Assembly (NCBI RefSeq): GCF_014055005.1
Contig: NZ_CP059570.1
Coordinates: 278,008-310,007, forward strand
Source of the DNA: Neisseria dentiae
GTDB taxonomy: Bacteria; Pseudomonadota; Gammaproteobacteria; Burkholderiales; Neisseriaceae
Length of the DNA: 32,000 bases
Direction: 5' to 3'
The position numbers and the translations under genes were made by a program. Below, piece after piece: positions 8,489-29,937 of this stretch. Under the pieces are notes generated by a model. That model saw only the letters and a program-made list of their open reading frames with translations. It did no database searches and was not told the DNA's origin. Positions within the stretch are counted from its first letter, which is position 1; each line of letters starts with the position of its first letter.

Positions 8489-8812
8489 ATGTTTTATATT
8501 TCGGAAGATGAATTAAAGTTTAAGCAAGATACTGTTTTTGAATATCGTGATTTAAAACTTAATCAGATATGTGTTAGGGAACTTGTTTTATTGAATGAAC
8601 GTTATCCTATTGATGATTTTGTTTCTTTTGCAAGGCGATATTTCCAGTATTTCCTTAATAGAACTTATTTGAATGATATTGTTGTATTTTTTGAAGATAG
8701 TTCTATTTTGAAAGTTCATTTTTCCGATTCGGGCTTTGAATGTTCGGAATATTATGATAATGAAATTTCAACAGCTTTTTATTACGGGCGTTATTCTATT
8801 CGTTTGCTCTAA
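8489..8812 (+). CDS. AT-rich accessory ORF of unknown function (possible moron)
   Basis: 107 aa from the ATG (111 aa from the GTG at 8477) in a stretch of visibly low GC. An open frame this long in AT-rich DNA is unlikely by chance. There is no signal peptide. The 3' end overlaps the adsorption gene start. Confidence 0.45.
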   Translation: MFYISEDELKFKQDTVFEYRDLKLNQICVRELVLLNERYPIDDFVSFARRYFQYFLNRTYLNDIVVFFEDSSILKVHFSDSGFECSEYYDNEISTAFYYGRYSIRLL

Positions 8813-14926: not shown

Positions 14927-15076
14927 GGCGGATTATTTTACTATGCCTGTATTGCGTGATGCAGGTGGGTTTTGCCGGTTTTGCCGGCGGCCGAAAATAA
15001 ATCTGCATGGTTTGCAAATGGTTTGGGCCGTGTAAGATATGTAAGGAAATTACATTTTCATAGAAAGATTGAGATC

Positions 15077-16348
15077 ATGACATATTGCTCTTCTAAAACA
15101 TTGCGCTTGGCGGCCGTAGCCGCTGCTACGCTGCTGGCATTGTCTGCCTGCGGCAAAAGTGAAGAATCGGCCCAGCAGGGCAAAGGGGGCGCGGCAGGCC
15201 AGCAGGCGCCCGCGCCCGTAGTGGGCGTGGTTACCGTGCAGCCGCAGTCGGTAACCATCAGCACCGAACTGCCCGGCCGTTTGGAGTCGCGCCGCTCGGC
15301 CGATATCCTGCCGCAAGTGAGCGGCATTATCAAAAAGCGTTTGTTTCAAGAGGGCAGTTATGTGAAGGCCGGTCAGGCGCTGTATCAGTTGGATGATGCA
15401 ACCTATACCGCTTCTTTGGAAAGCGCCCGCGCCGAGCTGGCTTCCGCACAGGCAACGTTGGCTAAGGCCAATGCCGATTTGGCGCGCTACAAGCCTTTGG
15501 TGGCCGCCGATGCCATCAGCAAGCAGGATTACGATGCCGCCGTGCAGTCTAAGCGCTCCGGCGAAGCCGGTGTGAAAGCTGCCCAAGCAGCAATCAGATC
15601 GGCCCAAATCAATGTGGACCGCTCGCGCATCAGCGCACCGATTTCCGGTTATATCGGCCAATCTTATGTTTCGGAAGGTGCGTTGGTTAGTTCCGGCAGC
15701 ACCACCAAGCTTGCCGTTATCCAGCAGACCAACCCCATGTATGTGAACCTTACCCAATCCGCAACCGATGCCATGAAGCTGCGCCAAGATATCGCCGACG
15801 GCAAAATGAAGGCGGTAAACGGCGCGGTGGAAGTGGACATCAAACTTGAAAACGGCCAAACCTACGCCCACAAAGGCCGCCTTCTGTTTGCAGACCCAAC
15901 GGTGGATGAAACCACCGGCCAAGTAACCCTGCGCGCCGAAGTGCCCAATCCCGATAACATTCTGCTGCCCAATTTATATGTGCGTGTGAGCCTGCCGCAG
16001 GCCGATATGGATGATGTGTTCGTGGTGCCGCAGCAGGCGGTAACGCGCGGCAAGCAAGATACGGTGATGATTGTGAACGCCCAAGGCGGTATGGAACCGC
16101 GCGTGGTAACGGTGGCGCAGCAATACGGCAGTAATTGGATTATTTCAGACGGCCTCAAGGCGGGCGACAAAGTGATTGTGGACGGTACATCTATCGCCGG
16201 TATGATGCAGGCGAAAAAAGTAACGCCTAAAGAATGGACGCCGCCTTCGGAGCAGGCATCGCAAGCCGCCCCCGCCGCCCAAGGCGCATCTGCCGTTCAG
16301 ACGGCCTCTGAAGCCAAACCCGCCGCCGCTTCCGGCGAGAAAAAATAA
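15077..16348 (+). CDS. mtrC: RND efflux periplasmic adaptor lipoprotein MtrC
   Basis: 423 aa from the ATG at 15077; the track start at 14972 is TTG. It has a lipobox (LLALSAC). Long blocks match MtrC as I recall it (APAPVVGVVTV, KRLFQEGSYV, LAKA.ADLARYKPLV, NPMYVN.TQSA, GRLLFADPTV). Confidence 0.9.
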   Translation: MTYCSSKTLRLAAVAAATLLALSACGKSEESAQQGKGGAAGQQAPAPVVGVVTVQPQSVTISTELPGRLESRRSADILPQVSGIIKKRLFQEGSYVKAGQALYQLDDATYTASLESARAELASAQATLAKANADLARYKPLVAADAISKQDYDAAVQSKRSGEAGVKAAQAAIRSAQINVDRSRISAPISGYIGQSYVSEGALVSSGSTTKLAVIQQTNPMYVNLTQSATDAMKLRQDIADGKMKAVNGAVEVDIKLENGQTYAHKGRLLFADPTVDETTGQVTLRAEVPNPDNILLPNLYVRVSLPQADMDDVFVVPQQAVTRGKQDTVMIVNAQGGMEPRVVTVAQQYGSNWIISDGLKAGDKVIVDGTSIAGMMQAKKVTPKEWTPPSEQASQAAPAAQGASAVQTASEAKPAAASGEKK

Positions 16349-16359
16349 GGAAGCGACAC

Positions 16360-19300
16360 ATGGCTAAATTTTTTATCGACCGCCCGATTTTTGCCTGGGT
16401 AATCGCGATTTTCGTGATTATCGCAGGTGTTGTGGGCATCAGAAGTCTGCCGGTTTCCCAATATCCTTCCGTGGGCGCACCTACCATCACGCTGACGGCC
16501 ACCTATCCGGGTGCATCGGCACAGGTAATGGAAGACAGCGTGCTGGCCGTTATCGAGCGCAATATGAACGGTGTGGAAGGCTTGGACTATATGACCACCA
16601 ATGCAACGTCCAGCGGCGGCGGCACGGTCAGCCTGACCTTTACCCCCGAAACCGACGAGGATATGGCGCAGGTTGAAGTGCAGAACAAACTTTCCGAAGT
16701 AACGGCGCTGCTGCCCGCAACCGTGCAGCAAAACGGTGTAACCGTATCCAAATCGCGATCCAACTTCCTGATGGTGTTGATGATGTCGTCCGACACCATG
16801 GACACAGAAGAAATCGCCGACTATGTGGAGCGCAACATCAAGCCGGAAATCCAGCGTGTGGAAGGTGTAGGCGAAGCCCGCCTGTTCGGCTCGCAACGTG
16901 CCATGCGCGTGTGGGTTGATCCGAAAAAACTGCAAAACTACAACCTTTCTTTTGCCGACGTATCTTCTGCCATCAGTGCCCAAAACGCCCAGCTTTCCGT
17001 AGGCACGATGGGCGATCTGCCTGCCGTACAGGGGCAGACCATTGCCGCCACCATTGTGGCGCAAGGCCAGATGAGCAAGCCCGAAGAGTTCGGCAACATC
17101 GTTTTGCGTTCCAGCACCGACGGTGCCAACGTTTATCTGAAAGACGTGGCCAAAATCGCTTTGGGCAGCCAGGATTATGCAACCGGCACGCGCTTGAACG
17201 GCAAGCCTTCGGTGGGTATGGCGGTGATGCTGTCCAACAGCGGTAACGCCGTGGCGACGGCTACCGCCGTGCGTGAAAAAATGGATCAGTTGCAGCGTTA
17301 TTTCCCCAACGATATGAAATGGTCGGCGCCTTACGATACGTCTAAGTTCGTGAACATTTCGATTGAGAAAGTGGTGCACACGCTGATCGAAGCCATTGTG
17401 TTGGTGTTTATTGTGATGTTCCTGTTTTTGCAGAATATCCGCTATACGCTGATTCCCACCATCGTGGTGCCGATTTCGCTGTTGGGTGCGTTTGCCTCGA
17501 TTTGGTATTTGGGCATGTCGATTAACGTGCTGACCATGTTTGCGATGGTGCTGGTAATCGGTATCGTGGTGGACGATGCGATTGTGGTGGTGGAAAACGT
17601 CGAGCGGATTATGGCCGAAGAAGGGCTGCCTCCGGTTGAAGCCACTAAAAAGGCCATGAGCCAGATTTCCGGTGCGGTAGTCGGTATTACAGCCGTGTTG
17701 ATTTCGGTGTTTGTGCCGCTGGCGATGTTCAGCGGCGCCACCGGTAATATTTACCGCCAGTTTGCCGTAACCATGGCGATTGCGATTGCTTTCTCGGCAT
17801 TTTTCGCCCTCACGCTCACGCCCGCTTTGTGCGCTTCCATGCTCAAAGCCATTCCCAAAGGCCATCACGAAGAGAAAAAAGGCTTTTTCGGCTGGTTCAA
17901 CCGCAAGTTTTCAGACGGCACACACCGCTACGAAGGCTGGGTGGCCAAGCTGTTGCGCAAATCCGCCCGCATGATGGTGGTGTATGTGGCGCTGGCCGCC
18001 GTGGCCGGTTTGCTGTTTGTGCGCATTCCCACATCCTTCCTGCCGACTGAAGACCAAGGCAGTCTGATGATGATGGTGCAGCTGCCTTCAGGCGCCACCA
18101 AAGAGCGTACCGATGCCACTTTGGCCGTTGCCAACCAAGTGATTACCTCCATGCCCGAAGTGGAAAACTTTATCGGCGTGTCTGGTTTCAGCTTTGCCGG
18201 TTCCGGCCAGAATATGGGTTTTGGTTTCGTGACCCTGAAAGATTGGAACGAGCGCAAAGCCGCAGGCAGTGATGCTGCTTCGGTGGCCGGTAAGATTACC
18301 GGTGCGCTGATGGGCAGCGTGCGCGACGGTTTTGCGATCGTGATGAACCCGCCCGCCATTATGGAATTGGGCACCAGCTCCGGTTTTGAAATGTATCTGC
18401 AAGACCGCAACAACAGCGGCCACGAAGCGTTGTTAGCCAAACGTAACGAGCTGATCGGCAAAATGCGCCAAAACCCGATGTTTGATGCCAGCAATGTGCG
18501 TGCTTCGGGTTTGGAAGATGCGCCACAGTTGAAGATTGAAATCGACCGTCAGGCCGCCGCCGCGCAGGGCATTGATTTTTCCAGCATCAAAACCGTTTTG
18601 GGTACGGCGTTGGGTTCTTCTTATATAAACGACTTCCCCAATAACGGCCGCTTGCAGCGGGTGATTGTTCAGGCCGATGCCGCCGCGCGTATGCAGCCTG
18701 CCGATATTCTTGCATTGCCCGTGCCCAACAGTAACGGCGTAGCGGTGCCGCTTTCCACCGTTGCCACCGTATCTTGGCAAAACGGTATGGAGCAGAGCGT
18801 GCGCTTCAACGGCTATCCCGCCATGCAGATTTCAGGCGCGGCGGCTACAGGTTATTCTTCGGGCGAAGTGATGGCCGAAGTGCAGAAAATGGTAGACCAA
18901 ATGCCCGGCTACAGCTTGGAATGGGGCGGCCAGTCGCGCGAAGAAGCCAAGGGCAGCTCGCAAACTTATGTTTTGTATGGTTTTGCCATTTTGGCCGTAT
19001 TCCTCGTGCTGGCCGCATTGTATGAAAGCTGGTCGATTCCGCTGGCCGTGATTTTGGTGGTGCCGCTGGGCTTCTTGGGTGTGGTGTTGGGTGTAACCGG
19101 CCGCAACCTTACCGGTAATCTGTTCGGTATGCCTGCCCAATACCTCAACGATATCTACTTCCAAGTCGGCCTGATTACCGTAATCGGTTTGAGTGCGAAG
19201 AACGCCATTCTGATTATCGAGTTTGCCAAAGACTTGCAAGAGCAGGGCAAAACGGCCATTGCCGCAGCACTGGAAGCCGCACACCTGCGTTTCCGTCCGA

Positions 19301-19560
19301 TTATTATGACCTCGTTTGCCTTTATCTTGGGCGTGGTGCCGCTGTATATCGCTTCGGGTGCCAGCTCGGCCAGTCAACGCGCCATTGGTACGACTGTGTT
19401 GTGGGGGATGTTGGTCGGTACGGTTTTGGCCGTGTTCCTTGTGCCGATTTTCTATGTTGTGGTGCGTAAAATCTTTAAAGGAGGCCACGGTACACCTGAG
19501 CAAGAACAGGTTGCAGACAATGCCGCCTTAACCGATAATGCCCACCCTGGCAAGGATTAA
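16360..19560 (+). CDS. mtrD: RND multidrug efflux permease MtrD
   Basis: 1066 aa. It begins MAKFFIDRPIFAWVI and has the 12-TM HAE1 architecture. It is highly similar to gonococcal MtrD as I recall it. Confidence 0.95.
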   Translation: MAKFFIDRPIFAWVIAIFVIIAGVVGIRSLPVSQYPSVGAPTITLTATYPGASAQVMEDSVLAVIERNMNGVEGLDYMTTNATSSGGGTVSLTFTPETDEDMAQVEVQNKLSEVTALLPATVQQNGVTVSKSRSNFLMVLMMSSDTMDTEEIADYVERNIKPEIQRVEGVGEARLFGSQRAMRVWVDPKKLQNYNLSFADVSSAISAQNAQLSVGTMGDLPAVQGQTIAATIVAQGQMSKPEEFGNIVLRSSTDGANVYLKDVAKIALGSQDYATGTRLNGKPSVGMAVMLSNSGNAVATATAVREKMDQLQRYFPNDMKWSAPYDTSKFVNISIEKVVHTLIEAIVLVFIVMFLFLQNIRYTLIPTIVVPISLLGAFASIWYLGMSINVLTMFAMVLVIGIVVDDAIVVVENVERIMAEEGLPPVEATKKAMSQISGAVVGITAVLISVFVPLAMFSGATGNIYRQFAVTMAIAIAFSAFFALTLTPALCASMLKAIPKGHHEEKKGFFGWFNRKFSDGTHRYEGWVAKLLRKSARMMVVYVALAAVAGLLFVRIPTSFLPTEDQGSLMMMVQLPSGATKERTDATLAVANQVITSMPEVENFIGVSGFSFAGSGQNMGFGFVTLKDWNERKAAGSDAASVAGKITGALMGSVRDGFAIVMNPPAIMELGTSSGFEMYLQDRNNSGHEALLAKRNELIGKMRQNPMFDASNVRASGLEDAPQLKIEIDRQAAAAQGIDFSSIKTVLGTALGSSYINDFPNNGRLQRVIVQADAAARMQPADILALPVPNSNGVAVPLSTVATVSWQNGMEQSVRFNGYPAMQISGAAATGYSSGEVMAEVQKMVDQMPGYSLEWGGQSREEAKGSSQTYVLYGFAILAVFLVLAALYESWSIPLAVILVVPLGFLGVVLGVTGRNLTGNLFGMPAQYLNDIYFQVGLITVIGLSAKNAILIIEFAKDLQEQGKTAIAAALEAAHLRFRPIIMTSFAFILGVVPLYIASGASSASQRAIGTTVLWGMLVGTVLAVFLVPIFYVVVRKIFKGGHGTPEQEQVADNAALTDNAHPGKD

Positions 19561-19562
19561 GT

Positions 19563-21002
19563 ATGAAACACATGAACTTCAAGCCCCTTATTAGTGCCGT
19601 GGCCGTGAGTATTGCCCTGTCGGCCTGCGCCATGATTCCGAAATACGAGCAGCCGCAGGTAAGCGTGCCCGAGAATTTCAAATACGACACTTATCCAGGC
19701 ACCGGCATTCAGGCGGCCTCTTTGGGCTGGCAGGATTATTTCGCCGACCCGCGCCTGCACCGCCTGATTGAAATCGCGTTGGCGCGCAACACCGATTTGC
19801 GCAGCGCCGCGCTCAATGCCGAAGCCCTGCGCAAGCAGTATATGATTCAGCGTGCCGACCTGCTGCCCGGCATCAATGCCACCGGCAGCGGTTCGCGCGG
19901 CAGAACGGCGGCCGATTTGAGCAACACGGGCCGGTCGTATGTGTCGTCGGCTTACAGCGTCGGCTTGGGCGTAACTTCTTACGAAATCGACCTGTTCGGC
20001 AAAGTGCGCAGCAACACCGAAGCCGCCTTGCAAAGCTATTTCAACAGCGCCGCCACCCGCGATGCCACCCATCTTTCTCTGGTGGCTTCGGTGGCGAAAG
20101 CCTATTTCAACGAACTTTATGCCGCAGAAAGCATGAAGCTGGCGCAAAACGTGTTGAAAACCCGCGAGCAAACCTACAAACTCACCCAGCTGAAACACAA
20201 AGCGGGCGTGGTTTCCGCCGTTGATTTGCGCCAGCAGGAAGCCCTGATCGAATCGGCCAAAGCCGATTATGCTAATGCCGTGAAATCCAAAGAGCAGGCG
20301 GCAAACGCGTTGGCCGTGCTGATCAACCAGCCGCTTCCGGCCGATTTGCCGGCCGGATTGCCGTTGAACAAACAGTTCAAAATCAGCAAATTGCCCGCAG
20401 GCTTAAGCTCCGAAGTGATGCTTAACCGCCCCGACATCCGCGCAGCGGAGCATTCGCTCAAACAGGCCAACGCCAATATCGGTGCGGCGCGTGCGGCGTT
20501 TTTCCCCAGCATCAGCCTCACCAGCACCATCGGCACAGGTTCTACCGAGTTGAGCGGTTTGTTTAAGGGCGGCAACGGCACATGGTCGTTCGCACCCAGC
20601 ATCAATCTGCCGATTTTCAACTGGGGCAGCAACAAAGCCAACCTCGATGCTGCGAAAATCCGCCAGCAGATTCAAGTGGTTAATTATGAGGCCGCCGTAC
20701 AGTCGGCTTTCCAAGACGTAGCCAACGCCTTGGTTGCCCGCGAGCAGCTGGATAAAAGCAATGCCGCTTTAACCAAGCAGAGCAGGGCTTATGCCGATTC
20801 GCTGCGCCTGATTAACCTGCGCTACCGCCACGGCGTATCCAGCGCGCTCGATTTGCTCGATGCCGAGCGCAGCAGCTACAGCGCCGATACCGCGCTGCTG
20901 GCCAACCAGCTCACCCGTTTGGAGAACCTTGCCGACCTGTATAAAGCCCTCGGCGGCGGTTTGAAGCGTTACACCCAAAACGACGATGCCGCCCGGCAAT
21001 AA
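19563..21002 (+). CDS. mtrE: Outer-membrane channel lipoprotein MtrE (NodT/OMF family)
   Basis: 479 aa with a lipobox (IALSAC). It has the two-repeat OMF architecture and lies 2 nt after mtrD. Confidence 0.9.
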   Translation: MKHMNFKPLISAVAVSIALSACAMIPKYEQPQVSVPENFKYDTYPGTGIQAASLGWQDYFADPRLHRLIEIALARNTDLRSAALNAEALRKQYMIQRADLLPGINATGSGSRGRTAADLSNTGRSYVSSAYSVGLGVTSYEIDLFGKVRSNTEAALQSYFNSAATRDATHLSLVASVAKAYFNELYAAESMKLAQNVLKTREQTYKLTQLKHKAGVVSAVDLRQQEALIESAKADYANAVKSKEQAANALAVLINQPLPADLPAGLPLNKQFKISKLPAGLSSEVMLNRPDIRAAEHSLKQANANIGAARAAFFPSISLTSTIGTGSTELSGLFKGGNGTWSFAPSINLPIFNWGSNKANLDAAKIRQQIQVVNYEAAVQSAFQDVANALVAREQLDKSNAALTKQSRAYADSLRLINLRYRHGVSSALDLLDAERSSYSADTALLANQLTRLENLADLYKALGGGLKRYTQNDDAARQ

Positions 21003-22867: not shown

Positions 22868-23776
22868 ATGCCCGCCCCATCGCGTTTGCGCGTCCACCTG
22901 CAACTTATCGGCATGGCGTTGTTTTGGGGTGCGAGCTGGTCGTTTGCGAAAACCATGGTGCAGCATATGCCGCCGATTGCCGGCGCCGGCCTGCGCTTTG
23001 TGTTCAGCACCGCCATTCTCTTGATGTGGCTGTATTACCGGCAAGGCTTTGCACCGCTGCGCGCGCTTGGCCGCCCGCAGTGGGCGGGGCTGATTATTGC
23101 CGGCTTTTTCGGCATTTATCTCTATGCCGTCTTTTTCATGGTTGCCCTGCAATATGTGCCCGCCGGCAAAGGCGCGACCACGGTTGCCCTAAACCCGGTG
23201 CTGCCTTTGTTGCTCGGCGCCTGGCTGTTTCGCGAACCGCTTAACCTGCGTATTTTCTGCGGCATGGCGCTGGCGGTTGCCGGTGCATTAACCGCCATTT
23301 CTCGTGGCGATTGGCTGGCGCTGTTTTCCGGCGGGCTGGGCATGGGCGAATATATGCTTTTCGGTGCCGTGCTGAGTTGGGGCGCCTATACCCTTATCGG
23401 CCGCTTTCTGCTCAAGGGTATCCCGCCGCTCATCAGCACGCTTGTTGCGGCGGGCAGCGGCAGCCTGATGCTGCTGGTAACTTCGTTTTTGGTTGAAGGC
23501 GTGCACGGCTGGCAGCAGCTTGCCCATACGCAGCCGGCGGCATGGATGAGTTTGGCCGGTATCGTTGTGCTGGCTACTGTGCTGGGCTATTTGTGGTATT
23601 TCGACGGCATCAAAGCGTTGGGCGCGGGTAAAGCCGCAATCTATATGGCGCTGGTACCGGTTTTCGGCATCACCGTCTCTACTTTGTGGTTGAACGAACC
23701 TTTGCATGTTTCCCTGCTCGGCGGTGCGGTGATGGTGGTGGGCGGTATGTTGGTTATGAATCTTCGGAAAACATAA
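22868..23776 (+). CDS. DMT-superfamily (EamA-like) transporter
   Basis: 302 aa from the ATG at 22868 (RBS AAGGAG). It has about 10 hydrophobic segments in two EamA-like halves. Confidence 0.8.
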   Translation: MPAPSRLRVHLQLIGMALFWGASWSFAKTMVQHMPPIAGAGLRFVFSTAILLMWLYYRQGFAPLRALGRPQWAGLIIAGFFGIYLYAVFFMVALQYVPAGKGATTVALNPVLPLLLGAWLFREPLNLRIFCGMALAVAGALTAISRGDWLALFSGGLGMGEYMLFGAVLSWGAYTLIGRFLLKGIPPLISTLVAAGSGSLMLLVTSFLVEGVHGWQQLAHTQPAAWMSLAGIVVLATVLGYLWYFDGIKALGAGKAAIYMALVPVFGITVSTLWLNEPLHVSLLGGAVMVVGGMLVMNLRKT

Positions 23777-23837
23777 GGCTGCTTTTGCATAACGCTGATG
23801 TAGTAGATGGCGTTATGGATTTTGCAAAGGGTTGGTT

Positions 23838-23895
23838 GTTATAAAAACACCGCGGCCGTCTGAAATGTTTCAGACGGCCGCGGTGTTTTTATAAC
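23838..23895. terminator. 58-bp perfect palindrome containing a DUS pair (bidirectional terminator or insulator)
   Basis: GTTATAAAAACACCGCGGCCGTCTGAAA (23838-23865) is the exact reverse complement of 23868-23895. Confidence 0.7.
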
Positions 23896-24011
23896 AAAAT
23901 ATTAAATTTTTTCAATCGCTTGAAGATTTATCATAAAAAATCTGTAGCAACGTGTAAGAAGCCGCCGCCTGTGCCGTCTACTCGGGCATGAACGATTTTT
24001 CAGGAACCATC

Positions 24012-24467
24012 ATGAACCGCACAGCTTGTTTGAGCCGCTTTTCAGACACATGGGGCAAAGATGCCGCGATTTTGGGTTTGCGCTTGTTTGCCGCTTATGA
24101 ATTCTGGGAAGCGGGCATTGAAAAATGGAACGGCCAAAACTGGTTTGCCGATATTCAAAGCGCGTTTCCGTTTCCGTTCAATTTGTTTTCCGCTGGATTC
24201 AACTGGACGGCGGCAACGGGCATCGAGTTGGTGGCGCCGCTGTTGCTGCTGTTCGGCCTGTTCGGGCGCGCCGGCGCGCTGATGCTGATGGCACTAACGG
24301 CGGTGGCATGGGCGGCGGTACACAGCGGCAACGGCTATAACGTGTGCGACAACGGCTACAAAATGGCACTGATTTATCTGGTGGCGCTGCTGCCGTTGGT
24401 TTTGCAGGGCATGGGCCGTTTTTCGCTGGACTATCTGCTTTTCGGCCGGCGCAATAAGGCCGTCTGA
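24012..24467 (+). CDS. DoxX-family membrane protein, first gene of the sigmaE / MNIO operon
   Basis: 151 aa from the ATG at 24012 (RBS AGGA); an alternative ATG lies at 23988. It has four hydrophobic segments and a DoxX-like N-terminus (LGLRLFAAYEFWEAGIEKW). Confidence 0.75.
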   Translation: MNRTACLSRFSDTWGKDAAILGLRLFAAYEFWEAGIEKWNGQNWFADIQSAFPFPFNLFSAGFNWTAATGIELVAPLLLLFGLFGRAGALMLMALTAVAWAAVHSGNGYNVCDNGYKMALIYLVALLPLVLQGMGRFSLDYLLFGRRNKAV

Positions 24468-24551
24468 AACGGTTAAGCGCCGTTTTATCCGGCAGAGATT
24501 TTATTCTTTATTGGTTTTATCCCCTCTATATGTTTGAAAGGAAAAAGAAAT

Positions 24552-24746
24552 ATGAAAACCACTTCTACTTTGATGGCATTGGCCGGCGCGCTGGTTTTGG
24601 CGGGCTGCCAGGTCGAGCCTGCGCAATCTTCTTCGCCGGAAGTGTCGGTGCAGCAGAAAGCGGGCGAGGGCAAGTGCGGCGCGGCTTCCCAAGCGGGCAA
24701 GGCTGCCGAAGGCAAGTGCGGCGAGGGTAAATGCGGCAGCAAATAA
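24552..24746 (+). CDS. hvfA: EGKCG-repeat precursor peptide 1 (HvfA/oxazolin-like), lipoprotein-type signal
   Basis: 64 aa: MKTTSTLMALAGALVLAGC|QVEP... with three EGKCG motifs, ending EGKCGEGKCGSK. RBS AAGGA lies upstream. The lipobox is LAGC. Confidence 0.75.
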   Translation: MKTTSTLMALAGALVLAGCQVEPAQSSSPEVSVQQKAGEGKCGAASQAGKAAEGKCGEGKCGSK

Positions 24747-24852
24747 TGTGATACCGGTTTGAAAAGGCTGCCAGGCATTTTCAGACGGCCTCATGTGTTC
24801 AACTTCATTTTCAATACTTGTTAATTTTCAATACTTTTTAAAAGGAAACATC

Positions 24853-25083
24853 ATGAAAAAATCTTCTTCTCTGATTGCATTGGCCGGTGCGCTGGCATTG
24901 TTGGGCGGACAGGCAATGGCGGAAACCAAACAGCCCGCTGCAGCCAAAACCGTGAAAACCGCCGTTAAAAAAGCGCAGGAAGGCGCTTGCGGCGAGGGCA
25001 AATGCGGCGCGTCGGCCGGCAAGAAATCTGCCGGTAAAGCGGGCGAAGGCAAGTGCGGCGAAGGCAAGTGCGGCAGCAAATAA
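24853..25083 (+). CDS. hvfA: EGKCG-repeat precursor peptide 2 (HvfA/oxazolin-like), Sec/SPase I-type signal
   Basis: 76 aa: MKKSSSLIALAGALALLGGQAMA|ETK... with one EGACG and three EGKCG motifs and the same C-terminus EGKCGEGKCGSK. RBS AAAGGA lies upstream. Confidence 0.75.
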   Translation: MKKSSSLIALAGALALLGGQAMAETKQPAAAKTVKTAVKKAQEGACGEGKCGASAGKKSAGKAGEGKCGEGKCGSK

Positions 25084-25090
25084 ATAATTG

Positions 25091-25130
25091 AGGCCGTCTG
25101 AAAAGGTTTGCCGTTTTCAGACGGCCTTTT
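25091..25130 (+). terminator. DUS-pair hairpin between the precursor genes and the modification genes (partial terminator or attenuator)
   Basis: AGGCCGTCTGAAAA (25091-25104) pairs with TTTTCAGACGGCCT (25114-25127), followed by TTT. Confidence 0.6.
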
Positions 25131-25169
25131 CGCCCCGTATGGCTGGAACAGTATGAAAAAGGAGATGGA

Positions 25170-26021
25170 ATGAATACCTTGCACGGCGCCGGTTTGGGCT
25201 ACAAACGCAGCATGGCTGCCGATTTCTTGCAGCTTGACCGCAACAACAGCCCGATCCGTTTCATTGAAATCGCCCCCGAAAACTGGTTGAGAATGGGCGG
25301 CGCGGCACGCAAGCAGTTTGATGAAGTGGCCGAACGCTTTCCCGTCGCCTGCCACGGCCTGTCGCTGTCGCTGGGCGGGCAAGACCCGTTGCAGCTTGAT
25401 TTTCTCAAACAAATCAAAGCATTTTTGCGGCAATACCGCATCGGCTTTTTTTCGGAGCATTTGAGCTATTGCAGCCACCACGGCCATATTTACGACCTGC
25501 TGCCGCTGCCGTTTACCGAAGAGTCGGTGCGCCACACCGCCGCGCGCATCCGGGCGGTGCAGGATATTCTCGAAATGCGCATCGCCGTGGAAAACACTTC
25601 ATATTACGCCCACAACCCGATTGCCGAGATGGACGAAGCCGAGTTTCTCAACGCCGTGGTGCGCGAGGCCGACTGCGACATCCATCTGGACATCAACAAT
25701 ATCTACGTTAACGCCGTCAACCACGGCATTGTCGCCCCGCGCGACTACATCGACCGCACCGATTTGGCGCGCGTCAGCTATATGCACATGGCCGGCCACG
25801 ACGAAAAAACCGAAAACCTGCTCATCGACACCCACGGCCAGCCCGTGTGCGACGACGTGTGGGATTTGTTTGCCTATGCCTGCCGCCGCCTGCCGCACAG
25901 CGTGCCCACCCTGCTGGAGCGCGACAGCAACTTCCCGCCGTTTGCCGAGCTGGAAGCCGAAGTCGCCCGCATCGCCGCCATCCAACAACAAGCAGAAAAG
26001 GAACGCCATGCAGCCGCATAA
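25170..26021 (+). CDS. hvfB: DUF692-family multinuclear non-heme iron oxidase (MNIO; MbnB/HvfB/BufB-like)
   Basis: 283 aa with UPF0276/DUF692 hallmarks: GLGYKR near the N-terminus, [25 protein letters not shown] and HMAGHD...LIDTHG. RBS AGGAG lies upstream. Confidence 0.85.
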
Positions 26022-26730
26022 CCCCAGCCCCTCCGCCCGCGCGCAGGCCGAGCTGGCCGACCATGTGCGCAACCCCGCGCTGCCCGCGCCCGCCGGCATC
26101 GCCCCCGAGCGTCTGGCCGTGTACACCCGCCTGGTGCGCAACAATTTGAAAAGCTTTCTCGACCTCTGCTTCAGCGACAGCAGCCTTATGCTCGACCCCG
26201 CGCAATGGCAGGGCTGGCAGAACCGCTTTTTGATCGAAGCGCGCCCCGAATCGCCGTTTTTCAACGATATTCCCGCGCAGTTTCTCGCCTACCTCAACCG
26301 CCTGCCCGAACACGACAGGCCGTCTGAAAACATTCTGGCGATGATGGATTTCGAAACCGCGCTGCTGCACGCAGAAACCGCCCGACAACCCGATTCAGAC
26401 GGCCGCTGGAGCGAACACAGCGTGTTATCATGGGCGCCCGCCGCCCGCCTGCAACAATATCCCTGCGATTTCGTCAGCAGCGGTTTGGCGCAGATAAACG
26501 CCGGCGCGTGCCACGTTTTAAGCTGGCGCAACCGCCGCAACGAAGTGTATTACCGCATTGTGGAAGATACCGATTTGTTTTTACTGCAACATTTTCAAAG
26601 CCAAAACGACACCTTCGCCCGCCTGCTCGAAAGCCTGCAAAGCCTGCTGCCGGGGCAGGACATCGAAGGCCGCCTGAAAACGGCCGTCGGCGGTTGGGTG
26701 GAAGCAGGCGTTTTACTCACGGCGGAATAA
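26008..26730 (+). CDS. hvfC: DUF2063-family partner protein (MbnC/HvfC/BufC-like, RRE-containing)
   Basis: 240 aa from the ATG at 26008 (RBS AAGGA). It overlaps hvfB by 14 nt. The N-terminal [22 protein letters not shown] pattern is typical of DUF2063. The 369-aa track ORF is an upstream out-of-context extension. Confidence 0.8.
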
Positions 26731-26733
26731 ATC

Positions 26734-27327
26734 ATGGAAGCATTCACGCAAAAACTGGCCGCCATTCGCCAAGATGTGCTGCGCTTTGCCAAAATCCAAC
26801 TGCGCGACGAATATCTGGCCGAAGACATCGTGCAAGACACGCTGGCCGCCGCCATCGCCAAACACAGCCAGTTCCGCGGCGACGCCGGGCTGAAAACCTG
26901 GGTGTTGAGCATACTCAAAAACAAAATCGCCGATTACTTCCGCAGCCACAAATACACCGTCAGCCTTGAGAGCCTGCAAGAAGAAAACGACGCCATCGAA
27001 CGCCACTACGACCACTGTTTCGACGAAAACGGCCACTGGCAGCTTGCCGACAGCCCGCAAAACTGGCAGCCCGCCCCCGAAGAAGCCGTTGCCCGGCAGG
27101 ATTTTTTCCGCGCGCTCGAAAACTGCATGCAGGGCCTGCCGCAGGATACCGCCCGCATTTTCTATTTGCGCGAAGTGATGGGTTGGGACGTGGAAGAAAT
27201 CTGCCGCGAATTTGCCATCAGCAAAGATAACTGCTACGTTATTTTGCACCGCGCCCGCAACGGCCTGCGCCGGTGCCTGCAACACCGCTGGTTCGACTTG
27301 GCCGAAGAAGAAGGCGCAGGGAAATAA
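26734..27327 (+). CDS. rpoE: ECF-type sigma-70 family sigma factor (neisserial sigmaE/Ecf)
   Basis: 197 aa. Region 2 is EDIVQDTLAAAIAKHSQFRGDAGLKTWVLSILKNKIADYFR. Region 4 is EICREFAISKDNCYVILHRARNGLRRCL. The start lies 3 nt after the hvfC stop. Confidence 0.85.
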   Translation: MEAFTQKLAAIRQDVLRFAKIQLRDEYLAEDIVQDTLAAAIAKHSQFRGDAGLKTWVLSILKNKIADYFRSHKYTVSLESLQEENDAIERHYDHCFDENGHWQLADSPQNWQPAPEEAVARQDFFRALENCMQGLPQDTARIFYLREVMGWDVEEICREFAISKDNCYVILHRARNGLRRCLQHRWFDLAEEEGAGK

Positions 27328-27336
27328 GGAGGAAAT

Positions 27337-27513
27337 ATGTTGAAATGCAAAGAAGCCTGCGTATTGCTTTCGCAAAGCCAGGACCGCACACTCACCCCGC
27401 GCGAACGCCTTTCGGTGTGGGTGCATCTGGCAATTTGCCCGCATTGCCGACGATACCGCAAACAGTTGAAGTTTATCAGAAAAAATATTAAAAATTGGCA
27501 GGAGCGGGAATAG
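27337..27513 (+). CDS. mseR: Small cytoplasmic zinc-binding (ZAS, HxxxCxxC) anti-sigma factor (MseR-like)
   Basis: 58 aa, below the track cutoff: MLKCKEACVLLSQSQDRTLTPRERLSVWVHLAICPHCRRYRKQLKFIRKNIKNWQERE. A strong RBS (AGGAGG) is present. The motif is H30-x3-C34-x2-C37. There is no TM segment. Confidence 0.75.
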   Translation: MLKCKEACVLLSQSQDRTLTPRERLSVWVHLAICPHCRRYRKQLKFIRKNIKNWQERE

Positions 27514-27562
27514 GGCGGGGCGGCCGGCTGGAAATTTTCGTGTTTGCCGGCAGGCCATCCGG

Positions 27563-27600
27563 GCAGCGGTTTTTAAACGATAAAACCGCTGCTTTATTTT
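27563..27600 (+). terminator. Rho-independent terminator ending the sigmaE operon
   Basis: GCAGCGGTTTT (27563-27573) pairs with AAAACCGCTGC (27582-27592), followed by TTTATTTTT. Confidence 0.75.
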
Positions 27601-27861: not shown

Positions 27862-29937
27862 ATGAAGAAAACGATTTTGGCCGTATTGATCGGCAACGCA
27901 TTTATCCTGCCTGCTTGGGCAGAAACGGAAGCACAAACACAAAGCGTTACATTGGATAATGTAGTGGTGAAAGGCGACCGGCAAGGCAGTAAAATCAAAA
28001 CCAATATCGTTACCCTGCAGGAAAAAGACGAAAGCACGGCAACCGATTTGCGTGGTCTGTTAAAAGAAGAGCCTGCGATCGATTTCAGCGGCGGCAACGG
28101 CACTTCTCAGTTTCTCACCATTCGCGGCATGGGTCAGAACTCGGTTGATCTTAAGATAGACAACGCCTATTCCGACAGCCAGATTCTGTATCACCAAGGC
28201 CGCTTCATTATCGACCCGGCGTTGGTGAAAATCGTATCGGTGCAAAAAGGCGCGGGTTCGGCCAGCGCGGGCATCGGTGCCACCAACGGCGCGATTGTCG
28301 CCAAAACCGTTGATGCCGCAGATTTGCTCAAGGGCTTGGATAAAGATTGGGGCGTGCGCGTCAATGCCGGTTATTCGAGCAATGAAGGCCACAATTACGG
28401 CACCAGCGTATTCGGCCGCGCAGGCAATTTTGACGGCCTGCTCTCTTATAGCCGGACAGATGAAGACGATTACAAGGCGGGCAAAGGTTACGCCAACCAA
28501 TATGGCGGCCAAACCGTTTTGAAAAGCGGTTTGGACAAGCGCAGCTATTTGGCCAAAATCGGTGCGAATTTCGACAACCACCGCATTGCCTTGAGCCATA
28601 TGCAGGACCAACATCGCGGCGAGCGTTTTGTGCGCGAAGAATTCGGCTGGGAAACCCTCCCGCGCGGCAACCGGATTGCCGATAATGCCCCGGTTTACCG
28701 TGAAACCACCCTTTCCAACACCAATTTGGAGTGGACGGCACAAGACTTGGGTTTCATCGAAAAACTGGAAGCAAACGCCTATCTGATGAAAAACAAGCGT
28801 TATTCAGTTGACGACACCAGCAACGGTTATGCCGGCAATGTGCCCGGCCCGACCACCACCGTAATCGACACCAAAGGTGCCAATTTGGGTTTGGACAGCC
28901 GCTTGGGCGAAAAAACGCTGCTCAAATACGGCGTGAACTACCGCCATCAGGAAATTAAGCCGCACGCTTTTTTAAATTCGCAATACACCAACAGAGATGA
29001 TGCGCAACTGCAAAGCCTGGTGAGAAGCTACAATCTGGTTAACCCGACCAAGACCGACGCGGGCGTGTATGCGGAAGCCATTCACGATATCGGCGATTTC
29101 ACCTTAACCGGCGGCCTGCGCTACGACCACTTCGACATCAAAACCCACGACGGCAAAAAAGTGTCTGCCGGCCGTCTGAACCCGAGCTTCGGCGTGATTT
29201 GGCAGCCGCTCGACACGCTCAGCTTCAGCGCCGTCCACAACTACGCCAGCCGCAGCCCGCGCCTGTATGATGCCTTGATGATCCACGGCCGCCGCGGCAT
29301 CGTTTCCATTGCCGACGGTACCAAAGCCGAGCGCGCGCGCAACACGGAAATCGGCTTCAACTACAACAACGGCACTTTTGCGGCAAACGGCAGTTACTTC
29401 TGGCAGAAAATCAGCGATGCTATCGCCAACCCGCAAGACCGCCACGGTTCGGCTTTTAGAGAAGCCGCCAATGCGGGCTACATCAAAAACCGCGGCTACG
29501 AATTGGGCGCGTCTTACCGTACCGGCGGCCTGATTGCCAAAGTGGGCGTTGCACACAGCAAACCGCGCCTTTACGACACACACCCCGAGAAGTTGTTAAG
29601 CGACAACCCCGAATTTGCCGTTCGGGTAGGCCGCACGTGGACCGCATCGCTGGCCTACCGCTTCAACAAGCCCGATTTGGAAATCGGCTGGCAGAACCGT
29701 ACCGTGCAGAAAGCCTCGGGTTCCGTTTTGGTGCGCGACGGTTCGCAGGTTGAACGCAAGAGCTATAACGTTAACGATATCTATGCCAACTGGAAGCCGT
29801 TGGGCAAAGATACTTTGAATGTGAATTTCGCCGTTAACAATGTGTTTAACAAGTTCTATTATCCGCACAGCCAGAAGGGTACAACCCTGCCCGGCATAGG
29901 CCGCGATTTCCGCTTGGCAGTGAACTACAGATTCTAA
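27862..29937 (+). CDS. TonB-dependent outer-membrane receptor (haem/hemophore/metallophore-receptor-like subfamily)
   Basis: 691 aa with signal peptide ...ILPAWA|ETE and a TonB-box-like VTLDNVVVKG. Plug motifs are TIRGMGQNSVDLKIDN...HQGRF.IDPALVK.VSVQKGAGSA. The C-terminus ends ...AVNYRF with a terminal aromatic residue. There is no N-terminal signalling extension. Confidence 0.85.
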   Translation: MKKTILAVLIGNAFILPAWAETEAQTQSVTLDNVVVKGDRQGSKIKTNIVTLQEKDESTATDLRGLLKEEPAIDFSGGNGTSQFLTIRGMGQNSVDLKIDNAYSDSQILYHQGRFIIDPALVKIVSVQKGAGSASAGIGATNGAIVAKTVDAADLLKGLDKDWGVRVNAGYSSNEGHNYGTSVFGRAGNFDGLLSYSRTDEDDYKAGKGYANQYGGQTVLKSGLDKRSYLAKIGANFDNHRIALSHMQDQHRGERFVREEFGWETLPRGNRIADNAPVYRETTLSNTNLEWTAQDLGFIEKLEANAYLMKNKRYSVDDTSNGYAGNVPGPTTTVIDTKGANLGLDSRLGEKTLLKYGVNYRHQEIKPHAFLNSQYTNRDDAQLQSLVRSYNLVNPTKTDAGVYAEAIHDIGDFTLTGGLRYDHFDIKTHDGKKVSAGRLNPSFGVIWQPLDTLSFSAVHNYASRSPRLYDALMIHGRRGIVSIADGTKAERARNTEIGFNYNNGTFAANGSYFWQKISDAIANPQDRHGSAFREAANAGYIKNRGYELGASYRTGGLIAKVGVAHSKPRLYDTHPEKLLSDNPEFAVRVGRTWTASLAYRFNKPDLEIGWQNRTVQKASGSVLVRDGSQVERKSYNVNDIYANWKPLGKDTLNVNFAVNNVFNKFYYPHSQKGTTLPGIGRDFRLAVNYRF

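What the first reader, a model, noticed from the sequence alone, without database searches (positions are those of the whole stretch)
24552..25083. Two tandem precursor paralogs with identical C-termini but different export signals (lipobox versus SPase I site)
Peptide 1 is MKTTSTLMALAGALVLAGC|Q... with 3 EGKCG motifs. Peptide 2 is MKKSSSLIALAGALALLGGQAMA|E... with EGACG plus 3 EGKCG motifs. Both end in EGKCGEGKCGSK.

The signal peptides are clearly homologous (ALAGAL.L). However, LAGC in one corresponds to LLGG in the other. One product should therefore be lipid-anchored and the other soluble or secreted.

This suggests two pools of the same Cu-binding chemistry, one membrane-tethered and one released. 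The cytoplasmic MNIO would also have to act before Sec export. I do not know of a description of this dual-localisation arrangement.
Basis: partly seen in the sequence, partly recalled or inferred. Interest (0 to 1): 0.75.

Follow-up and report, generated by a model that had tools for sequence, protein, structure and literature searches.

The report
Lipid-anchored and soluble copper-peptide precursor pair
Two neighbouring small genes in Neisseria dentiae encode the same kind of copper-binding peptide precursor, one with a lipoprotein signal and one with an ordinary secretion signal; the lipidated one is the already published NedA, but the conserved pairing with a soluble twin has not been described.

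Summary
The window is from Neisseria dentiae. Peptide 1 (24552-24746) is identical to NedA (WP_085365104.1). A 2026 PNAS paper showed that NedA becomes a triacylated lipoprotein in E. coli and that NedBC modifies its three EGKCG motifs.

Peptide 2 (24853-25083, WP_085365103.1) is the canonical HvfA/oxazolin-type precursor, with a signal peptidase I signal (AMA|E). I found no mention of it in that paper or its preprint supplement.

Both genes lie in one sigmaE-type operon: hvfX, pep1, pep2, hairpin, hvfB (the MNIO enzyme), hvfC, an ECF sigma factor and a ZAS anti-sigma factor.

The order lipobox gene, then SPI gene, then hairpin, then hvfB recurs in nine Neisseria lineages. The lipobox Cys is invariant and the mature N-termini differ consistently between the two types. 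Indels between strains are all in frame. Neither gene looks like a decaying pseudogene.

Six other Neisseriaceae loci, every non-Neisseriaceae locus, and two non-Neisseria lipobox-type precursors have a single precursor.

The dual-targeting reading is therefore well supported, but the family, the chemistry, modification before export and lipidation of this very peptide are all published. What is new is modest: a conserved SPII plus SPI precursor pair served by one maturase. Physiological function remains inferred.

The parts
23838..23895 (.). Perfect 27-bp inverted repeat built on an inverted pair of Neisseria DNA uptake sequences. It acts as a bidirectional terminator-like insulator between the upstream EamA gene and the operon.
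   Evidence: Fold -47.8 kcal/mol, z = -13; sequence.
23954..23980 (+). SigmaE (ECF)-type promoter, GTAAGAAGC-N12-CGTCTAC. The predicted transcription start is the A at about 23988.
   Evidence: It matches the published neisserial sigmaE consensus (-35 GTMAGBWTT, 12-13 nt spacer, -10 CGTCTAAH, conserved A 6 nt downstream; PMC2893595). It is the only such motif in 23700-27600 and is conserved upstream of hvfX in 12 of 13 Neisseria loci.
24012..24467 (+). hvfX, a DoxX-family membrane protein. The longer ORF from 23988 is probably not the real start.
   Evidence: NF050144 HvfX 132.7 bits (cut-off 80) and Pfam DoxX. The 23988 ATG is ATA in strain 1292RC1 and coincides with the predicted transcription start. 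An AGGAA ribosome-binding site precedes 24012.
24552..24746 (+). Precursor 1 (nedA), an SPII/lipobox-type oxazolin precursor. The lipobox L16-A17-G18-C19 is at 24597-24608. The mature peptide starts at Cys19 with a ~20-residue tether rich in Ser, Pro and Gln, and has 3 EGKCG motifs.
   Evidence: Identical to WP_085365104.1 NedA, which was shown to be triacylated and modified in E. coli (PMC13056109).
24746..24796 (+). Weak hairpin in the pep1-pep2 spacer containing a single DUS. It is followed by an AT-rich stretch with a 13-nt direct repeat (24807-24819 and 24824-24836) and the pep2 ribosome-binding site.
   Evidence: Fold of the spacer -19.1 kcal/mol, z = -0.8, so not significant. No sigma70-like or sigmaE-like promoter was found here.
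24853..25083 (+). Precursor 2, an SPI-type canonical HvfA/oxazolin precursor. The signal is residues 1-23 (24853-24921) with predicted cleavage AMA|ETK. The mature peptide is strongly basic, with EGACG plus 3 EGKCG motifs.
   Evidence: aligns to the HvfA model from residue 1; WP_085365103.1, named 'Periplasmic protein' by UniRef.
25090..25130 (+). Stable hairpin made of an inverted DUS pair followed by TTTT. Read as a partial terminator or mRNA-stabilising element between the precursor genes and the maturase genes.
   Evidence: -30.3 kcal/mol, z = -5.7, 0 of 200 shuffles as stable. An equivalent strong hairpin follows the last precursor gene in all 13 Neisseria loci examined.
25170..26021 (+). 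hvfB/nedB, the MNIO (DUF692) maturase. It has no signal peptide.
   Evidence: PF05114 338.7 bits; NF003818 HvfB 382.9 bits (cut-off 360). Identical to the NedB used in PMC13056109.
26008..26730 (+). hvfC/nedC, the DUF2063 plus RRE-type partner protein. It overlaps hvfB by 14 nt.
   Evidence: NF050145 HvfC 161.5 bits (cut-off 142); PF09836 and PF22106.
26734..27327 (+). ECF sigma factor (homologue of the neisserial sigmaE/Ecf).
   Evidence: TIGR02943 214 bits; Sigma70_r2 and r4_2. Conserved downstream of hvfC in all Neisseria loci that reach that far.
27337..27513 (+). Zinc-binding (ZAS, zf-HC2) anti-sigma factor (MseR-like).
   Evidence: NF052368 83.8 bits; PF13490. Conserved. Role as in N. 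meningitidis NMB2145 (PMC2893595).

Best explanation
This is the hvf/ned oxazolin gene cluster of Neisseria dentiae. It carries two precursor paralogs that one cytoplasmic maturase pair serves and that are then sent to different places.

1. An ECF sigma factor, held in check by a zinc anti-sigma factor, transcribes hvfX-pep1-pep2-hvfB-hvfC-sigma-antisigma from one promoter. This is inferred from the promoter motif and from the N. meningitidis and N. gonorrhoeae operons.
2. A strong hairpin after pep2 probably lets precursor transcripts outnumber maturase transcripts (inferred).
3. In the cytoplasm HvfB/NedB with HvfC/NedC oxidises the Cys of each EGKCG motif (-4 Da each) to a copper-binding heterocycle, now assigned as 5-thiooxazole. 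This is shown for peptide 1 in E. coli and inferred for peptide 2. Recognition lies in the core repeats and not in the signal peptide, as shown for HvfA.
4. Both peptides then cross the inner membrane via Sec.
5. Peptide 1 is diacylglycerylated on Cys19, cleaved by signal peptidase II and N-acylated. It becomes a triacylated lipopeptide on a flexible Ser/Pro/Gln tether. This was shown heterologously. Which membrane or face it occupies in Neisseria is unknown; Gln at +2 argues against inner-membrane retention by the E. coli rule.
6. Peptide 2 is cut by signal peptidase I after AMA23 and released as a small, very basic soluble periplasmic peptide (inferred).

The result is a membrane-tethered pool and a free pool of the same metal-binding chemistry. 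The pair arose by duplication of the canonical SPI-type gene within one Neisseria subclade and has been kept since.
For: Family assignment:
- Both peptides, HvfB, HvfC and HvfX pass the curated NCBIfam cut-offs.
- Peptide 1 and HvfB are identical to the published NedA and NedB.
- NedA was isolated as a triacylated lipopeptide with -12 Da.

Why both peptides can be substrates:
- The HvfA signal peptide and N-terminal region are dispensable for modification.
- The same paper shows SPI cleavage of HvfA.
- Peptide 2 aligns to the HvfA model from residue 1, while peptide 1 matches only its C-terminal repeats.

Conservation:
- The order lipobox gene, SPI gene, hairpin, hvfB occurs in N. dentiae (3 strains), N. 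musculi, N. montereyensis, N. chenwenguii, N. zoodegmatis, three unnamed Neisseria and one metagenomic contig.
- The lipobox is L-A-G-C in all but one, which has L-V-A-C.
- No SPI paralog has a Cys in its signal.
- Tethers vary in sequence but keep a Ser/Thr/Pro/Gln-rich composition. Mature pI is 6.9-9.3 for the lipobox type and 9.4 or above for the SPI type.

Both genes are maintained:
- Between N. dentiae strains the N-terminal parts differ almost only synonymously.
- The three indels (15, 57 and 63 nt) are all in frame.

Operon:
- One conserved sigmaE-type promoter and a conserved hairpin.
- The homologous operons are co-transcribed and sigmaE-dependent in N. meningitidis and induced by neutrophils in N. 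gonorrhoeae.
Against: - There are no expression, localisation or modification data for peptide 2, and none for either peptide in N. dentiae itself.
- Lipidation was shown only in E. coli.
- Signal types were judged by sequence rules, because SignalP was not available.
- Six Neisseriaceae loci have only the SPI gene: N. elongata, N. iguanae, WLZKY-1, N. bacilliformis, oral taxon 020 and Kingella potus. The lipidated form is therefore dispensable in relatives.
- The physiological role of EGKCG peptides in copper handling is not settled. Only weak protection, and no expression under copper, was seen for the Microbulbifer homologue.
- The hairpin's T-run is short (4 T), and the generic terminator scan did not list it.
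Confidence: 0.78

Rival explanations
1. This is a redundant duplication. The two genes mainly raise precursor dosage or the number of repeats, and the lipobox difference has no physiological consequence.
For: - The core motifs and C-termini are the same.
- In N. chenwenguii the last 19 codons of the two paralogs are 93% identical at the DNA level, which suggests sequence exchange between them.
- Repeat number drifts between strains.
- Many relatives manage with one SPI gene.
Against: - The lipobox Cys and the Ser/Pro/Gln tether are retained in every one of nine lineages.
- The SPI paralog always keeps its Cys-free signal and a lysine-rich N-terminus.
- Gene order is fixed.
- A neutral difference would be expected to be lost or homogenised, especially if the paralogs exchange sequence.
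Confidence: 0.12
2. Only one gene is functional, and the other is an unexpressed or decaying copy.
For: - In the type strain both genes are shorter than in other N. dentiae strains (3 against 6 motifs, and 4 against 6).
- In Neisseria sp. Z2-81 the SPI copy has only one double motif.
- In MAG S18M_Sa_17 the lipobox copy has GEANCG instead of EGKCG.
Against: - There are no frameshifts or stop codons in any of 20 genes from 10 loci.
- All indels are in frame.
- Both genes have ribosome-binding sites and lie between the single promoter and the hairpin.
- Peptide 1 is a proven substrate, and peptide 2 is the copy most like the characterised HvfA.
Confidence: 0.04
3. The lipidated copy is not a second working pool. 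It is a membrane-bound sensor or decoy that reports metal or oxidant status to HvfX or to the anti-sigma factor, or that titrates the maturase.
For: - The operon is autoregulated through a ZAS anti-sigma factor.
- It also encodes a membrane DoxX protein of unknown role.
Against: - Nothing in the sequence links peptide 1 to the cytoplasmic anti-sigma factor, which is 58 aa with no membrane segment.
- Species with only the SPI gene keep the same sigma/anti-sigma pair.
Confidence: 0.05

Closest known systems
NedABC of Neisseria dentiae CCUG 53898, a 'DAG-RiPP' (PMC13056109, PNAS 2026)
   Same: It is the same locus. Peptide 1 is NedA, and the MNIO and partner here are NedB and NedC. Lipobox-directed triacylation and -4 Da per EGKCG motif were shown in E. 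coli.
   Different: That work treats NedA as the sole precursor. The adjacent SPI-type paralog WP_085365103.1 is absent from the main text and from the preprint supplement. The sigmaE promoter, the hairpin and the conservation of the pair across species are also not covered there.
HvfA/oxazolin of nontypeable Haemophilus influenzae, hvfXABC (PMC11252979; revised chemistry in bioRxiv 10.64898/2026.06.05.730506)
   Same: Same gene set (DoxX, precursor, MNIO, DUF2063-RRE partner), same AEGKCGEGKCG repeats, and a Sec/SPI signal as in peptide 2. Cu(I) binding by the modified Cys residues was demonstrated.
   Different: There is a single precursor with 6 motifs plus an N-terminal disulfide pair, and no lipobox paralog. 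Both peptides here score below the HvfA equivalog cut-off (about 40 bits against 95), so they are family members rather than equivalogs.
Bufferins (Buf1/DUF2282 and Buf2) and the MNIO landscape survey (PMC12452194)
   Same: These are Sec-exported, MNIO plus DUF2063-modified copper-binding peptides. About 16% of Buf2 precursors are predicted lipoproteins, and some clusters have tandem precursor genes.
   Different: It is a different precursor family (no DUF2282 hit). That survey notes lipoprotein signals and tandem precursors separately. It does not report a lipoprotein plus soluble pair in one cluster, and it does not mention lipoprotein signals for EGKCG precursors.
SigmaE/Ecf operon of N. 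meningitidis (NMB2140-NMB2145) and N. gonorrhoeae (NGO1948-NGO1943)
   Same: Same operon architecture and promoter motif, the same ZAS anti-sigma factor, and autoregulation. The gonococcal operon is induced on contact with neutrophils.
   Different: Those operons are described with six genes, which implies one precursor (NMB2141/NGO1947). I could not retrieve their sequences to check.
Lipid-modified periplasmic metalloproteins of Neisseria, such as Laz (lipid-modified azurin) with its Ala/Pro-rich H.8 tether (from my own knowledge, not tested here)
   Same: The theme is the same: a normally soluble periplasmic copper protein is anchored through a lipobox and a flexible low-complexity tether.
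   Different: These are unrelated proteins and are not RiPPs. The resemblance is by analogy only.

Membership tests
HvfA/oxazolin (Buf_EGKCG) RiPP precursors | Repeated E-G-K-C-G motifs that match the NCBIfam NF050137 'KCGExKCG_twice' domain above its cut-off | tested here: met
   Peptide 1 scores 37.3 bits and peptide 2 scores 36.1 bits, against a cut-off of 19.5.
HvfA/oxazolin (Buf_EGKCG) RiPP precursors | Equivalog-level match to H. influenzae HvfA (NF050188, cut-off 95 bits) | tested here: not met
   The scores are 41.9 and 39.3 bits. Both are family members but not HvfA equivalogs. Peptide 2 aligns over model positions 1-76, and peptide 1 only over 64-96.
HvfA/oxazolin (Buf_EGKCG) RiPP precursors | Encoded next to an HvfB-type MNIO, an HvfC (DUF2063 plus RRE) partner and an HvfX (DoxX) protein | tested here: met
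   HvfB 382.9 bits (cut-off 360), HvfC 161.5 (cut-off 142) and HvfX 132.7 (cut-off 80).
HvfA/oxazolin (Buf_EGKCG) RiPP precursors | N-terminal Sec signal peptide | tested here: met
   Both peptides have MK(K/T), a hydrophobic LxALAGALxL core, and then either a lipobox or an A-x-A site. This was judged by rules because SignalP was not available.
HvfA/oxazolin (Buf_EGKCG) RiPP precursors | Motif Cys converted by the MNIO to a Cu(I)-binding heterocycle (-4 Da each) | not testable with these tools
   This is published for peptide 1 (NedA): -12 Da over three motifs. It is untested for peptide 2.
Bacterial lipoproteins / DAG-RiPPs (SPII pathway) | Lipobox [LVI][ASTVI][GAS]C at the end of a signal peptide (peptide 1) | tested here: met
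   L16-A17-G18-C19. The lipobox is conserved as LAGC or LVAC in all nine lineages. Triacylation was shown in E. coli.
Bacterial lipoproteins / DAG-RiPPs (SPII pathway) | Lipobox [LVI][ASTVI][GAS]C at the end of a signal peptide (peptide 2) | tested here: not met
   There is no Cys before residue 46. The sequence LLGGQAMA|E gives an A-x-A signal peptidase I site, and the same holds in all SPI-type orthologs.
Bufferins (Buf1, DUF2282) | DUF2282 domain with four conserved Cys | tested here: not met
   Neither peptide hits any Pfam family. HvfB scores 274.9 bits against the BufB model, below its cut-off of 310.
Methanobactin (MbnA/MbnB/MbnC) | MbnB-type MNIO and a leader-core MbnA precursor without a Sec signal | tested here: not met
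   The MbnB model scores 48.4 bits against a cut-off of 325. Both precursors carry Sec signals.
Neisserial sigmaE (Ecf/RpoE-MseR) operon | Promoter with -35 GTMAGBWTT and -10 CGTCTAAH spaced 12-13 nt apart, with the ECF sigma and ZAS anti-sigma genes at the 3' end of the operon | tested here: met
   GTAAGAAGC-N12-CGTCTACT lies at 23954-23982. It has 3 mismatches in the -35 tail and 1 in the -10, and is conserved in 12 of 13 Neisseria loci. The sigma and anti-sigma models hit. Sigma-dependence itself was not tested.

The most novel reading that the evidence does not exclude
The two differently targeted peptides are not parallel pools. They are steps of a copper relay: the basic soluble peptide captures Cu(I) in the periplasm and hands it to the lipid-anchored one. 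That one sits in the outer membrane or on the surface and is shed with outer-membrane vesicles. A stress-induced ECF operon would thereby become a Cu export and disposal route. Run the other way, it would be a tethered chalkophore whose copper is taken up through the TonB-dependent receptor that follows the operon in N. dentiae and N. musculi.
Probability: 0.1. Interest if true: 0.7.

Novelty: new variant of a known kind. Interest (0 to 1): 0.38.

Why it matters
The physiological role of oxazolins and bufferins is still unclear, although the H. influenzae member is a virulence factor and the homologous gonococcal operon responds to neutrophils.

A natural system in which one maturase feeds both a tethered and a free version of the same metallophore offers a clean genetic handle. 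Single deletions and signal swaps can ask where the chemistry is needed: the membrane surface or the bulk periplasm.

The pairing also matters for genome mining. Pipelines that stop at the first precursor, or that filter for one signal type, will miss the twin. That is apparently what happened for this very cluster.

The gain is incremental. It refines a published system and does not reveal a new one.

Tried and rejected
- **Pseudogene or chance ORF: rejected.** The ORFs are intact, indels are in frame, and the pair is conserved.
- **Longer start codons (TTG 24534, ATG 24793, ATG 23988 for hvfX): rejected.** The grounds are the deposited protein records for the two peptides, ribosome-binding-site position, and loss of the 23988 ATG in another strain.
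- **An independent promoter for pep2: not found.** The sigma70 scan found none on the + strand in 23700-25300, and the sigmaE motif occurs only once, upstream of hvfX.
- **TonB-dependent receptor (27862-29937) as part of the system: rejected as core.** It follows the operon only in N. dentiae and N. musculi.
- **Concerted evolution of the C-termini against divergence of the N-termini: inconclusive.** Ungapped identity comparisons were clear only for N. chenwenguii and N. dentiae.
- **A single origin of the pair: not resolved.** An NJ tree of HvfB without bootstrap places the SPI-only N. elongata and WLZKY-1 inside the pair-bearing group, which suggests one gain and at least one loss.
- **Retrieving the N. 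meningitidis and N. gonorrhoeae loci: failed.** The genome scan patterns and the three protein searches did not return them, so their single-precursor state rests on the literature.
- **Looking for the pair outside Neisseriaceae: none found.** Single precursors occur in all non-Neisseriaceae hvfB loci. The two non-Neisseria lipobox-type precursors I could place in context are also single.
- **Supplement of the published PNAS version:** not held in the library. The preprint supplement was searched instead.

Full report
**What is in the window**

The two ORFs exist exactly as described: peptide 1 at 24552-24746 (64 aa) and peptide 2 at 24853-25083 (76 aa), both on the + strand.

Around them lie:
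- a DoxX gene (best start 24012, end 24467);
- an MNIO gene (25170-26021);
- a DUF2063/RRE gene (26008-26730);
- an ECF sigma factor (26734-27327);
- a zf-HC2 anti-sigma factor (27337-27513);
- a TonB-dependent receptor (27862-29937).

Curated NCBIfam models name these HvfX, HvfB and HvfC. They place both peptides in the 'HvfA family oxazolone/thioamide-modified RiPP metallophore' domain family above its cut-off, but below the cut-off for H. influenzae HvfA equivalogs. Peptide 2 aligns to the HvfA model from its first residue. Peptide 1 aligns only over the C-terminal repeats. Peptide 2 is therefore the canonical copy and peptide 1 the derived one.

**Identity of the locus**

An exact-sequence look-up shows the window is Neisseria dentiae. 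Peptide 1 is WP_085365104.1 (UniRef name 'Lipoprotein'). Peptide 2 is WP_085365103.1 (UniRef name 'Periplasmic protein'). The MNIO is WP_085365102.1.

WP_085365104.1 is NedA of a 2026 PNAS paper (PMC13056109). There, C-terminally tagged NedA was co-expressed with NedB and NedC in E. coli. It was recovered from the membrane fraction as a triacylated [16:1, 16:0, 16:0] lipopeptide with -12 Da across its three EGKCG motifs. The preprint's supplement lists exactly the sequences found here for NedA and NedB.

The same paper states that modification happens in the cytoplasm before export. I found no mention of WP_085365103.1 or of a second precursor in the main text or in the preprint supplement.

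**Signals**

- Peptide 1 has MK-, a hydrophobic core and L-A-G-C, a textbook lipobox, with Gln at +2.
- Peptide 2 has MKK-, a homologous hydrophobic core, no Cys, and QAMA|E, an A-x-A signal peptidase I site.
- At the DNA level the two signal regions are clearly homologous. TGC (Cys) in one lies opposite GGA (Gly) in the other.
- I could not run SignalP, so these are rule-based calls. They are backed by the NedA experiment and by the demonstrated SPI cleavage of H. influenzae HvfA.

**Can both be substrates?**

For HvfA, removing the signal peptide, and even the whole N-terminal region, does not prevent modification of the repeats by HvfBC. Two precursors with different N-termini but the same repeats can therefore plausibly share one maturase. 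For peptide 2 this step is inferred.

**Conservation**

I fetched 74 hvfB loci from species-representative genomes, scanned them for EGKCG-type ORFs, and added loci through protein look-ups.

| Arrangement | Where found |
|---|---|
| Lipobox gene, SPI gene, hairpin, hvfB | N. dentiae (three strains), N. musculi, N. montereyensis, N. chenwenguii, N. zoodegmatis, Neisseria sp. MVDL19-042950, MAGs S18M_Sa_17 and Z2-81, and one metagenomic contig |
| One SPI-type gene, with no room for a relic between hvfX and it | N. elongata, N. iguanae, Neisseria sp. WLZKY-1, N. bacilliformis, Neisseria oral taxon 020, Kingella potus |
| One precursor | All non-Neisseriaceae loci |

Features of the pair:
- The lipobox is LAGC in every case but one, which has LVAC.
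- The residue after Cys is Gln in most and never Asp.
- The next ~20 residues vary in sequence but are always rich in Ser, Thr, Pro, Ala and Gln.
- The mature lipobox-type peptides have pI 6.9-9.3.
- The SPI-type peptides are always at pI 9.4 or above. Most keep a V-K-T-A-x-K-K-A-Q-E-G-A-C-G-E-G-K-C-G start of the core.

A profile search of 1.84 billion representative proteins found lipobox-type EGKCG peptides outside Neisseria too, in line with the PNAS paper. The two I could place in context are single precursors. Within what I could sample, the pair is therefore a feature of one Neisseria subclade. An unsupported NJ tree of HvfB suggests one gain after the split from N. iguanae and at least one loss.

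**Are both genes alive?**

- Among three N. dentiae strains the signal-plus-tether part of peptide 1 differs only synonymously. That of peptide 2 shows 2-3 synonymous and 0-2 conservative differences.
- The type strain differs from strain 1292RC1 by deletions of 15 and 57 nt in peptide 1 and 63 nt in peptide 2. All are in frame and bounded by repeats.
- Other strains carry 4- or 6-motif versions.
- None of the 20 genes in the ten pair-bearing loci I tabulated has a frameshift or premature stop.
- Both genes have AGGA-type ribosome-binding sites.

**Expression signals**

Upstream of hvfX lies GTAAGAAGC-N12-CGTCTACT (23954-23982). It matches the neisserial sigmaE consensus defined in N. meningitidis, including the conserved A six bases downstream. 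It is conserved in 12 of 13 Neisseria loci and is the only such motif in the operon.
- That A is the first base of the annotated hvfX ATG at 23988, which is ATA in another strain. The real start is therefore probably 24012.
- No promoter-like site precedes peptide 2.

Directly after peptide 2, an inverted pair of DNA uptake sequences forms a -30 kcal/mol hairpin (z = -5.7) followed by TTTT. A comparable hairpin follows the last precursor gene in all 13 Neisseria loci. I read this as an attenuator or a 3'-stabiliser that raises precursor transcripts over maturase transcripts. Read-through must occur, because the sigma factor gene lies downstream and the meningococcal operon is co-transcribed.

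The homologous gonococcal operon is induced on exposure to neutrophils.

**Chemistry and function**

The modification in oxazolin was first assigned as oxazolone/thioamide and has since been reassigned to 5-thiooxazole by the same laboratory. Modified HvfA binds several Cu(I) ions. For a Microbulbifer homologue, copper protection was weak and the genes were silent under copper stress. 'Two pools of copper-binding chemistry' is therefore a reasonable inference and not a demonstrated role.

**Comparison with what is known**

The following are all published:
- the family, the maturase pair and modification before export;
- lipoprotein-type oxazolins, and NedA itself;
- tandem precursors in bufferin clusters, and lipoprotein signals on about 16% of Buf2 precursors, noted separately.

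What I could not find in the searchable literature is a cluster described as encoding both an SPII-type and an SPI-type copy of the same precursor.

**Verdict**

The finding is a conserved new variant of a known system rather than a new kind of system, and I score its interest as moderate to low.

Noticed in passing
window 24552-25083 compared with L001 3248-3914: Repeat number is polymorphic within N. dentiae. Relative to strain 1292RC1, the type strain lacks 15 and 57 nt in peptide 1 (3 motifs against 6) and 63 nt in peptide 2 (4 motifs against 6). All indels are in frame and bounded by repeats. A 4-motif variant also exists (P0038).
   Followed up: yes
L003 3120-3467 (Neisseria sp. MAG S18M_Sa_17): The lipobox paralog here carries six perfect A-G-E-A-N-C-G units instead of EGKCG, plus a different C-terminal tail. 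The neighbouring SPI paralog keeps EGKCG. Whether the MNIO accepts the EANCG variant is unknown.
   Followed up: partly
window 23988-24012: The annotated hvfX start (ATG 23988) coincides with the predicted sigmaE transcription start and is ATA in strain 1292RC1. ATG 24012, which has an AGGAA ribosome-binding site, is the likelier start.
   Followed up: partly
window 25090-25130 and 23838-23895; all 13 Neisseria loci: Inverted pairs of the Neisseria DNA uptake sequence (GCCGTCTGAA) form the hairpins that insulate the operon upstream and that separate the precursor genes from the maturase genes. The position after the last precursor gene is conserved even where the hairpin sequence is not.
   Followed up: yes
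window 24807-24819 and 24824-24836: The 13-nt sequence ATTTTCAATACTT occurs twice, 17 nt apart, just upstream of the peptide 2 ribosome-binding site. N. musculi has one copy. Its function is unknown.
   Followed up: no
L077 3001-3342 (metagenomic contig SRR12148938): This precursor's signal ends ...ALMTGCSAMA|HD. It has both a lipobox-like M-T-G-C and an A-x-A site, so it may be an ambiguous or intermediate signal type. The contig ends at its stop codon, so its context is incomplete.
   Followed up: partly
P0104, P0106, P0125, P0137 (such as Hydrogenovibrio crunogenus): Some EGKCG-family precursors carry twin-arginine (Tat) signals (SRRDFLK...). Many others are fused to EF-hand domains. The family therefore uses at least Sec/SPI, Sec/SPII and Tat export signals.
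   Followed up: no
window 27862-29937: A TonB-dependent receptor follows the operon only in N. dentiae and N. musculi. It is only 86% identical between two N. dentiae strains, whereas the neighbouring genes are 96-100% identical.
   Followed up: partly
window 8736-13903: A filamentous-prophage-like segment (TspB-family protein 8736-10391, Zot-like protein 10690-11844) is followed by an IS110-family transposase (12875-13903).
   Followed up: no
window 14198-21002: A TetR-family repressor on the - strand lies next to a divergent three-gene RND efflux system (membrane fusion protein, AcrB-type pump, outer membrane factor). An RND/OEP pair also lies just upstream of hvfX in N. zoodegmatis.
   Followed up: no
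L075 3001-3635 (N. chenwenguii): The last 19 codons of the two paralogs are 93% identical at the DNA level, including the non-motif residues SKNAKSA. This suggests recent sequence exchange between the paralogs' 3' ends while their 5' ends stay distinct.
   Followed up: partly
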